Part shown: positions 58,733-58,830 of the stretch, piece after piece | Position numbering within the stretch: position 1 is the stretch's first letter | Layout: each line of letters opens with the position of its first letter | Assembly: GCF_050920415.1 (NCBI RefSeq) | Contig: NZ_CP169309.1 | DNA: 64,000 bases | DNA from: Escherichia coli | GTDB lineage: Bacteria; Pseudomonadota; Gammaproteobacteria; Enterobacterales; Enterobacteriaceae | Reading direction: 5' to 3' (one strand) | Position numbers and translations under genes: made by a program | The notes under the pieces: generated by a model | Seen by the model: the letters and a program-made list of their open reading frames with translations, nothing else | The model's database searches: none | Told to the model about the DNA's origin: nothing

Positions 58733-58830
<98 letters not shown>

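What the first reader, a model, noticed from the sequence alone, without database searches (positions are those of the whole stretch)
58751..58761. Unoccupied perfect IS621 target 11-mers in other REP elements of the window
The exact 11-mer ATCAGGCCTAC, identical to the reconstructed insertion target, occurs in the REP of the dppA-dppB BIME (plus strand 58751..58761) and, on the minus strand, in the BIME downstream of proK (56434..56444). A 10/11 match (atccggcctac) lies at 22560..22570 beside the resident element. These are candidate landing sites if a functional recombinase is present in the genome, and they illustrate how a REP-targeted element can spread without disrupting genes.
Basis: seen in the sequence. 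Interest (0 to 1): 0.4.

Follow-up and report, generated by a model that had tools for sequence, protein, structure and literature searches.

The report
Empty IS621 landing sites in REPs
Two short repeat elements in this E. coli window carry the exact 11-base sequence that the mobile element IS621 is guided to by its own RNA. Both sites are empty here but occupied in a few other E. coli genomes, which is correct, expected and already published.

Summary
ATCAGGCCTAC occurs exactly twice: at 58751-58761 (+), in the BIME between dppA and dppB, and at 56434-56444 (-), in the BIME after proK/RtT. Shuffled sequence gives no matches. A 10/11 match, ATCCGGCCTAC, lies at 22560-22570.

The resident element (23885..22608, minus strand, 1278 bp) is IS621, and its flanks rebuild ATCAGGC-CT-AC.

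- All 18 IS621 copies I sampled, at about 14 loci, sit at ATC[A/G]GGCCT|AC in one fixed orientation.
- The dppA-dppB site holds an intact IS621 in 5 of 5426 complete E. coli genomes. The proK site does in at least 2.
- Both sites, and the resident site, appear verbatim in the natural-target list of Durrant et al. 2024. That paper also showed that 129 genomic ATCAGGCCTAC sites are hit experimentally.

Caveats:
- The window's own copy has two frameshifts. Its bridge-RNA guide segments are unchanged, so recombinase would have to come from another copy. A 99.97-99.99% identical genome has intact copies.
- The 10/11 site has C at position 4, which gives a G-G clash with the guide. The same REP is occupied in two genomes only where it reads ATCGGGCCTAC.
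- The dppA-dppB site lies inside an operon.

Verdict: a correct reading of known biology (Choi 2003; Durrant 2024). Low interest.

The parts
58751..58761 (+). Site A: unoccupied exact IS621 target ATCAGGC-CT-AC, at the tail of the first REP of the dppA-dppB BIME
   Evidence: The orthologous site holds an intact IS621 in 5 genomes.
58733..58830 (.). dppA-dppB BIME. It consists of a REP at 58733-58761 (+), a linker of the CTGCAATGTATTGA type, and an inverted Y-type REP at 58797-58830 (-) with the tail ATCCGACCTAC.
   Evidence: Rfam ES036 hit at 58754-58796.
56434..56444 (-). Site B: unoccupied exact IS621 target, at the tail of a Z2-type REP downstream of proK and RtT
   Evidence: The site is occupied in RMDEC465 and CFIAFB20140388.
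56434..56518 (-). BIME downstream of proK: Z2-type REP at 56434-56469 plus an inverted Y-type REP
   Evidence: Rfam naRNA4 hit at 56437-56518; sequence.
22537..22570 (+). Y-type REP on the ysaA side of the ysaA-avtA BIME. Its tail ATCCGGCCTAC (22560-22570) is the 10/11 match, with C at target position 4.
   Evidence: The orthologous REP reads ATCGGGCCTAC and carries IS621 in two genomes.
22608..23885 (-). Resident IS621 copy, 1278 bp, variant lineage, with an inactivated recombinase gene. One CT core is counted at its right end.
   Evidence: It is 97.2-99.9% identical to annotated IS621 copies.
23886..23894 (-). Left half of the occupied target (ATCAGGCCT), the tail of the avtA-side REP. The right half (AC) is at 22606-22607.
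23695..23872 (-). Bridge RNA region in the left end of the element. Guide segments: LTG AUCGGGCCU at 23822-23814, RTG GUAG at 23794-23791, LDG ACAGUAUC at 23748-23741, RDG CAAG at 23709-23706.
   Evidence: Alignment to the published 177-nt IS621 bridge RNA shows 5 differences, none in the guides. The predicted fold has two internal-loop domains, z = -3.8.
22715..23693 (-). IS621 recombinase pseudogene. There are 1-bp deletions at window 23089/23090 (CCC to CC) and 22953/22954 (GGGG to GGG), and the first ORF stops after 215 aa.
   Evidence: Pfam PF01548 and PF02371 are found on separate frame pieces.

Best explanation
The two 11-mers are the conserved 3' tails of Z-type REP units in two BIMEs. 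They are present because REPs are a repeated family in E. coli.

IS621 is an IS110-family element with a DEDD recombinase and a bridge RNA encoded in its left end. Its target-binding loop is matched to this REP tail. The left target guide AUCGGGCCU pairs with the bottom strand of ATCAGGCCT, with a G-T wobble at position 4. The right target guide GUAG pairs with the top strand CTAC. The donor-binding loop recognises the RE-LE junction ACAGTAT-CT-TG of the excised circle. Exchange at the CT core places the element between ATCAGGCCT and AC, in one fixed orientation and with no target duplication.

Both sites are therefore genuine, currently empty attachment sites. The resident copy in the window cannot make recombinase, so any insertion would need recombinase from an intact copy elsewhere in the genome.

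Shown here: the sites, the REP context, the reconstructed target, the intact guide segments, the broken recombinase gene, and occupancy of the same sites in other genomes.
Taken from the literature: the RNA-guided mechanism and its mismatch rules.
Inferred: that this strain has an active copy.
For: - Exact matches, with none expected by chance, and REP/BIME context.
- The resident element's flanks rebuild ATCAGGCCTAC.
- 18 of 18 sampled copies at about 14 loci show ATC[A/G]GGCCT | IS | AC.
- Site A is occupied in 5 of 5426 genomes. Site B is occupied in at least 2.
- The resident bridge RNA is identical to the published IS621 bridge RNA across all four guide segments and folds into two loop domains.
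- Durrant et al. 2024 (PMC11208160) report that wild-type IS621 inserted at 173 E. coli genomic sites. Of these, 144 were in REPs and 129 matched ATCAGGCCTAC. The loop encodes ATCGGGCCTAC, and a mismatch at position 4 is tolerated. Their natural-target list contains both site sequences and the resident site.
- The near-identical genome MFDS1022581 has intact IS621 genes at ysaA-avtA and narP-ccmH.
Against: - No direct evidence of IS621 activity in the strain the window comes from. The only copy in the window is a pseudogene.
- Occupancy of the two sites is rare: 5 and at least 2 of 5426 genomes. By contrast, up to about 1243 genomes carry an IS621 junction at ysaA-avtA. These sites are therefore not preferred, or insertions there are lost.
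- Neither site has the 3' flank GCA that extends right-guide pairing and marks the most used sites. Site A has GAG and site B has GTT.
- Empty sites cannot be told apart from sites restored by scarless excision.
Confidence: 0.93

Rival explanations
1. The 11-mers are REP consensus sequence and nothing more. They are kept for REP functions such as mRNA 3'-end stabilisation, gyrase or IHF binding, or mobilisation by the REP-associated transposase. In this strain they have no practical relationship to IS621, because no active recombinase is present.
For: Both lie in canonical REP/BIME units. The window's IS621 recombinase gene is broken. The sites are empty in more than 99.8% of complete E. coli genomes.
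Against: This explains why the sequence exists but does not exclude its use as a target. The same sites carry IS621 in other genomes. A genome 99.97-99.99% identical over 50 kb has intact IS621 genes.
Confidence: 0.05
2. The sites are footprints. IS621 once sat there and excised scarlessly, restoring ATCAGGCCTAC.
For: IS110-family excision is scarless according to Durrant et al. 2024, so a restored site would look exactly like this.
Against: Such a site is indistinguishable from one that was never occupied. The same REP tails are present in the large majority of genomes, including those without IS621. The site A flank matches in 5422 of 5426 genomes, while IS621 is found in only 2244.
Confidence: 0.02
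3. The matches are chance occurrences of an 11-mer.
For: None.
Against: No match in any of 100 shuffles. Both matches are embedded in REP units about 30 nt long.
Confidence: 0

Closest known systems
IS621 (IS110 family) and its natural REP target ATCAGGCCTAC (Choi, Ohta & Ohtsubo 2003; Durrant et al. 2024; Hiraizumi et al. 2024)
   Same: Same element: 97-99.9% nucleotide identity to annotated IS621. Same target 11-mer, CT core and orientation rule, and the same bridge-RNA guide segments. Both window sites and the resident site are in the published natural-target list.
   Different: The window's copy belongs to a variant lineage with about 35 substitutions and one extra base in the hairpin between the two target guides. 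It also carries two frameshifts in the recombinase gene.
Other REP-targeting insertion sequences: IS1397/ISKpn1 (IS3 family) and ISPpu9/ISPpu10 (IS110 family, Pseudomonas putida REPs)
   Same: They use an abundant extragenic palindromic repeat as a safe, multi-copy landing pad.
   Different: IS1397 uses protein-based recognition and inserts in the REP loop. The Pseudomonas elements target different REP sequences with their own guide RNAs. None of these is present in the window.
Sister IS110 element whose target-binding loop encodes ATCCGGCCTAC (group 'TBL_ATCCGGCCTAC' in the Durrant et al. 2024 supplementary data)
   Same: It targets the Y-type REP tail, which is exactly the 10/11 sequence at 22560-22570.
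   Different: It has a different bridge RNA and is a different element. I did not look for it in the window or in this genome.

Membership tests
IS621 / IS110-family bridge-recombinase element (resident copy, 22608-23885) | High nucleotide identity to IS621 over its full length of about 1279 bp | tested here: met
   100% coverage and 97.2-99.9% identity to copies annotated 'IS110-like element IS621 family transposase'.
IS621 / IS110-family bridge-recombinase element (resident copy, 22608-23885) | [quoted passage not shown] | tested here: met
   Both domains are detected, but on different reading-frame pieces. Intact homologues carry both.
IS621 / IS110-family bridge-recombinase element (resident copy, 22608-23885) | Intact 326-aa recombinase ORF (an autonomous element) | tested here: not met
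   Two 1-bp deletions relative to intact copies. The first ORF ends at 215 aa.
IS621 / IS110-family bridge-recombinase element (resident copy, 22608-23885) | Bridge RNA in the left end, with a target-binding and a donor-binding loop complementary to the target and donor | tested here: met
   Differs from the published 177-nt bridge RNA at 5 of 178 aligned positions (4 substitutions, 1 inserted base), with LTG, RTG, LDG and RDG unchanged. The fold shows two loop domains. No Rfam family exists for it. Expression was not tested.
IS621 / IS110-family bridge-recombinase element (resident copy, 22608-23885) | No target-site duplication and a CT core at both junctions (LT-CT-RD and LD-CT-RT) | tested here: met
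   The junctions are ATCAGGC-CT-TG... and ...ACAGTAT-CT-AC.
IS621 attachment (target) site (58751-58761 and 56434-56444) | Match to the natural target ATCAGGCCTAC with CT at positions 8-9 | tested here: met
   Exact matches. The published natural target is given.
IS621 attachment (target) site (58751-58761 and 56434-56444) | Complementarity to the guides of the bridge RNA | tested here: met
   LTG AUCGGGCCU against ATCAGGCCT matches 8 of 9 positions, with a G-T wobble at position 4. RTG GUAG pairs with CTAC.
IS621 attachment (target) site (58751-58761 and 56434-56444) | Actually used: IS621 found at the orthologous site in the predicted orientation | tested here: met
   Site A is occupied in 5 genomes. 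Site B is occupied in at least 2. Both are in the published list.
IS621 attachment (target) site (58751-58761 and 56434-56444) | Insertion occurs in this strain | not testable with these tools
   Needs a transposition assay or population sequencing.
IS621 attachment (target) site (10/11 match, 22560-22570) | Position 4 compatible with the guide (A or G) | tested here: not met
   The window has C at position 4. The orthologous REP is occupied only where it reads ATCGGGCCTAC. In the experiment, ATCAGGCCTAC and ATCGGGCCTAC together took 96.2% of insertions. A few natural ATCCGGCCTAC targets are listed.
REP / BIME | Extragenic imperfect palindrome of about 35 nt beginning GCC[G/T]GATG and ending in the CTAC tail, arranged in inverted pairs | tested here: met
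   Sequences and pairing. Rfam REP-derived families naRNA4 and ES036 hit both loci.

The most novel reading that the evidence does not exclude
The resident IS621 is a non-autonomous copy: its recombinase gene is broken but its bridge-RNA guides and both ends are intact. The same frameshift allele (loss of one G at reference position 935) is found with essentially identical sequence at three loci. These are ysaA-avtA in the window, and yajD-tsx and yaaX-yaaA in the 99.97-99.99% identical genome MFDS1022581, where the ysaA-avtA copy is intact.

This could mean that defective IS621 copies are mobilised in trans by intact copies, each supplying its own bridge RNA in cis. It could instead mean that IS621 copies homogenise one another by gene conversion.
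Probability: 0.25. Interest if true: 0.3.

Novelty: already known. Interest (0 to 1): 0.1.

Why it matters
It matters little beyond annotation. The finding correctly labels two REP tails as IS621 attachment sites, and the comparison with other genomes shows both are used in nature. That is a useful positive control for reading bridge-RNA targets from sequence alone.

The biology is established. REP targeting by IS621 was described in 2003, and the RNA-guided mechanism and the genome-wide use of ATCAGGCCTAC in 2024. Both specific sites are already in published supplementary data.

Practical value: these sites are predictable hotspots for insertion polymorphism between strains. They are also possible endpoints of IS621-mediated rearrangements in a region that contains the essential glyQS genes.

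Tried and rejected
- The left-junction chimeric query for site B gave 1102 genomes with at least 80% coverage. I rejected this as a count of occupancy, because the 120-nt flank is almost entirely generic BIME sequence and cross-matches other Z2-REP/IS621 junctions. Only loci checked by annotation (L002, L018) are counted. The right-junction query found 1 genome, because the RtT flank varies between strains.
- Rfam search of the bridge-RNA region found no family at gathering threshold or at E <= 1.
- Choi et al. 2003 (PMC166490) is not held in the library. It is cited only through the reference lists seen.
- I looked in the Durrant supplements for gene names or for a table of experimental insertion sites at dppA or proK. 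Nothing was found by gene name, so whether these two sites were hit in their assay remains unknown.
- I considered that the two frameshifts are sequencing errors. This is unlikely. They are the only indels in 50 kb of alignment to MFDS1022581, though both fall in short homopolymer runs, so it cannot be excluded.
- I could not count ATCAGGCCTAC genome-wide in this strain, because whole genomes cannot be retrieved with these tools.

Full report
**Observation**

A search for ATCAGGCCTAC finds exactly two matches in the window, at 58751-58761 (+) and 56434-56444 (-). None occurred in 100 dinucleotide-preserving shuffles. Allowing one mismatch adds only ATCCGGCCTAC at 22560-22570 (+).

**Context of the two sites**

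Site A is the last 11 nt of a REP unit, GCCGGATGCGCTCCGCTTATCAGGCCTAC (58733-58761).
- It lies 56 nt after the stop of a 535-aa ORF at 57088-58695, and upstream of the next ORFs at 58940-60022 and 60032-60934.
- BLAST hits and the annotation of orthologous loci identify these genes as dppA, dppB and dppC.
- An inverted Y-type REP at 58797-58830 completes a BIME. Rfam places the REP-derived family ES036 there.

Site B is the tail of a Z2-type REP, GCCTGATGCGGCGCTGACGCGTCTTATCAGGCCTAC (56434-56469, minus strand).
- It follows tRNA-Pro(CGG) at 56026-56102 and two RtT repeats directly.
- It lies inside an Rfam naRNA4 hit at 56437-56518.

The 11-mers are therefore REP tails, which explains why they are repeated.

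**The resident element**

On the minus strand the sequence reads ...GCCTGATGCACTACGCTTATCAGGCCT | TGTATTATCCC ... ACAGTATCT | ACATCATTTC....
- The element occupies 23885..22608 (1278 bp), between avtA and ysaA.
- Its flanks rebuild ATCAGGC-CT-AC.
- It matches copies annotated as 'IS110-like element IS621 family transposase' over its full length at 97.2-99.9% identity.
- IS621 is present in 2244 of 5426 complete E. coli genomes, with a median of 5 places per genome that has it.

Against an intact copy (L001) it has 36 differences.
- One extra base lies in the bridge-RNA region.
- Two 1-bp deletions lie in the recombinase gene, at reference positions 794 and 935.
- The first ORF ends after 215 aa instead of 326.
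- Pfam finds PF01548 on the first piece and PF02371 on a second, differently framed piece.

The left-end RNA region (23872-23695) differs from the published 177-nt IS621 bridge RNA at four substituted positions and one inserted base.
- All four guide segments are unchanged: LTG AUCGGGCCU, RTG GUAG, LDG ACAGUAUC and RDG CAAG.
- It folds into the expected 5' hairpin plus two internal-loop domains (-63 kcal/mol, z = -3.8).

**Do other copies sit at the same motif?**

I collected IS621 copies in three ways: by exact-protein look-up (10 places), from annotated regions of hits, and from the window itself.
- In all 18 copies, at about 14 distinct loci, the left end is preceded by ATC[A/G]GGCCT and the right end is followed by AC.
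- The loci include thrC/yaaX-yaaA, exbD, nlpE-proS, cueO-gcd, ilvA-ilvY, ridA-mgtA, narP-ccmH, yajD-tsx, the cai operon, dppA-dppB, proK and ysaA-avtA.

**Are the two empty sites ever used?**

I built chimeric queries of 120 nt of flank ending in ATCAGGCCT followed by 120 nt of IS621 left end.

Site A: five genomes match end to end, with dppA under the match. In strain 2017.18.02CC the order is dppA, intact IS621 (326 aa), dppB, and both junctions are exact.

Site B:
- The left-junction query cross-matches many unrelated BIME/IS621 junctions, giving 1102 genomes. I counted only loci verified by annotation.
- These are RMDEC465 (eptB, tRNA-Pro, RtT, IS621, dppA, both junctions) and CFIAFB20140388.

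For comparison, the junction of the resident insertion at ysaA-avtA is found in up to 1243 genomes. All 12 rows listed for that search lie at ysaA.

**Published knowledge**

Durrant et al. 2024 (PMC11208160) state the following:
- IS621 targets REP elements (citing Choi et al. 2003).
- The naturally observed target is ATCAGGCCTAC, while the target-binding loop encodes ATCGGGCCTAC.
- A mismatch at position 4 is tolerated.
- Wild-type IS621 inserted at 173 E. coli genomic sites, of which 144 were in REPs and 129 matched ATCAGGCCTAC exactly. These 129 plus two ATCGGGCCTAC sites took 96.2% of insertions.

Their supplementary list of natural targets contains three relevant 50-mers:
- Site B of the window, identical over all 50 nt: seq19, GGCGCTGACGCGTCTTATCAGGCCTACGTTCAGATTTGGTCGGTGCCAGA.
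- The dppA-dppB site in the allele seen in L001: seq458.
- The resident ysaA-avtA site, identical over all 50 nt: seq7.

The finding is therefore already in the literature, down to the individual sites.

**The 10/11 site**

ATCCGGCCTAC has C at position 4, so the bottom strand carries G opposite the guide's G. A chimeric query for this site found two genomes, 23CRST007 and 23CRST012. In these:
- IS621 sits in the orthologous ysaA-side REP, in the opposite orientation to the window's copy.
- The avtA-side REP is empty.
- The left junction reads TTATCGGGCCT | TGTATT, so the target was ATCGGGCCTAC, the perfect match to the guide.

The window's allele is therefore a poor target as it stands. The Durrant data do list a few natural ATCCGGCCTAC targets for IS621. 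They also list a separate element whose loop encodes ATCCGGCCTAC.

**Is a recombinase available?**

The window is 99.97-99.99% identical to NZ_CP169399.1 (strain MFDS1022581) over 50 kb.
- The differences are 10 substitutions, the two 1-bp deletions in IS621, and a 1331-bp insertion in the window.
- That genome has about 10 IS621 places.
- Its copies at ysaA-avtA and narP-ccmH are intact. Its copies at yajD-tsx and yaaX-yaaA are frameshifted.

It is therefore likely, but not shown, that the window's genome contains an intact copy able to act on these sites.

**Mechanism and verdict**

These are genuine, empty attachment sites for bridge-RNA-guided recombination. They exist because they are REP consensus sequence. 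They are used rarely, at 5 and at least 2 of 5426 genomes. Neither has the 3' GCA flank that extends right-guide pairing at the most used sites.

Site A lies within the dppABCDF operon, so an insertion there spares ORFs but may not be neutral.

The novelty class is 'already known'.

Noticed in passing
window 22608-23885; L003:3001-4279; L015:1342-2620; L016 (ysaA-avtA copy): The frameshift allele of IS621 (loss of one G at reference position 935, giving a 250-aa ORF) is identical at yajD-tsx and yaaX-yaaA in MFDS1022581. It differs by only one further deletion from the window's ysaA-avtA copy. The ysaA-avtA copy of MFDS1022581 is intact and differs at 4 positions. This suggests trans-mobilisation of a defective copy, gene conversion between copies, or context-specific assembly error.
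   Followed up: partly
window 27676-29006: A 1331-bp insertion upstream of bax that is absent from the otherwise near-identical MFDS1022581. It encodes a 136-aa HTH_Tnp_1 protein and a 301-aa rve integrase-core protein, the IS3-family layout. Size and layout look like IS2 from memory, but the ends and target duplication were not examined.
   Followed up: partly
L017:3530-4960 (strain 23CRST007, ysaA-avtA BIME): The same BIME can be occupied through either of its two REPs, giving opposite IS621 orientations. In this strain the ysaA-side REP (ATCGGGCCTAC) is used and the avtA-side REP (ATCAGGCCTAC) is empty, the reverse of the window.
   Followed up: yes
window 23805-23815 (minus strand; bridge RNA, between LTG and RTG): The variant IS621 lineage (window, L002, L003, L014-L016) carries G>A, C>U and one inserted base in the small hairpin between the two target guides: CCUUAGGUUUUCAACC versus CCUUGGGUUCUAACC. 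This appears to lengthen that hairpin. The effect on activity is unknown.
   Followed up: no
window 56137-56424: Two RtT repeats follow proK here (Rfam RF00391, 100 and 63 bits). Other strains have one or none annotated (L001, L002, L018), so the flank of site B varies between strains.
   Followed up: no
window 3836-4759 (by correspondence with L016 annotation): A hicA/hicB toxin-antitoxin pair and a hypothetical gene lie between aldB and yiaW, according to the annotation of the near-identical genome. This was not examined in the window itself.
   Followed up: no
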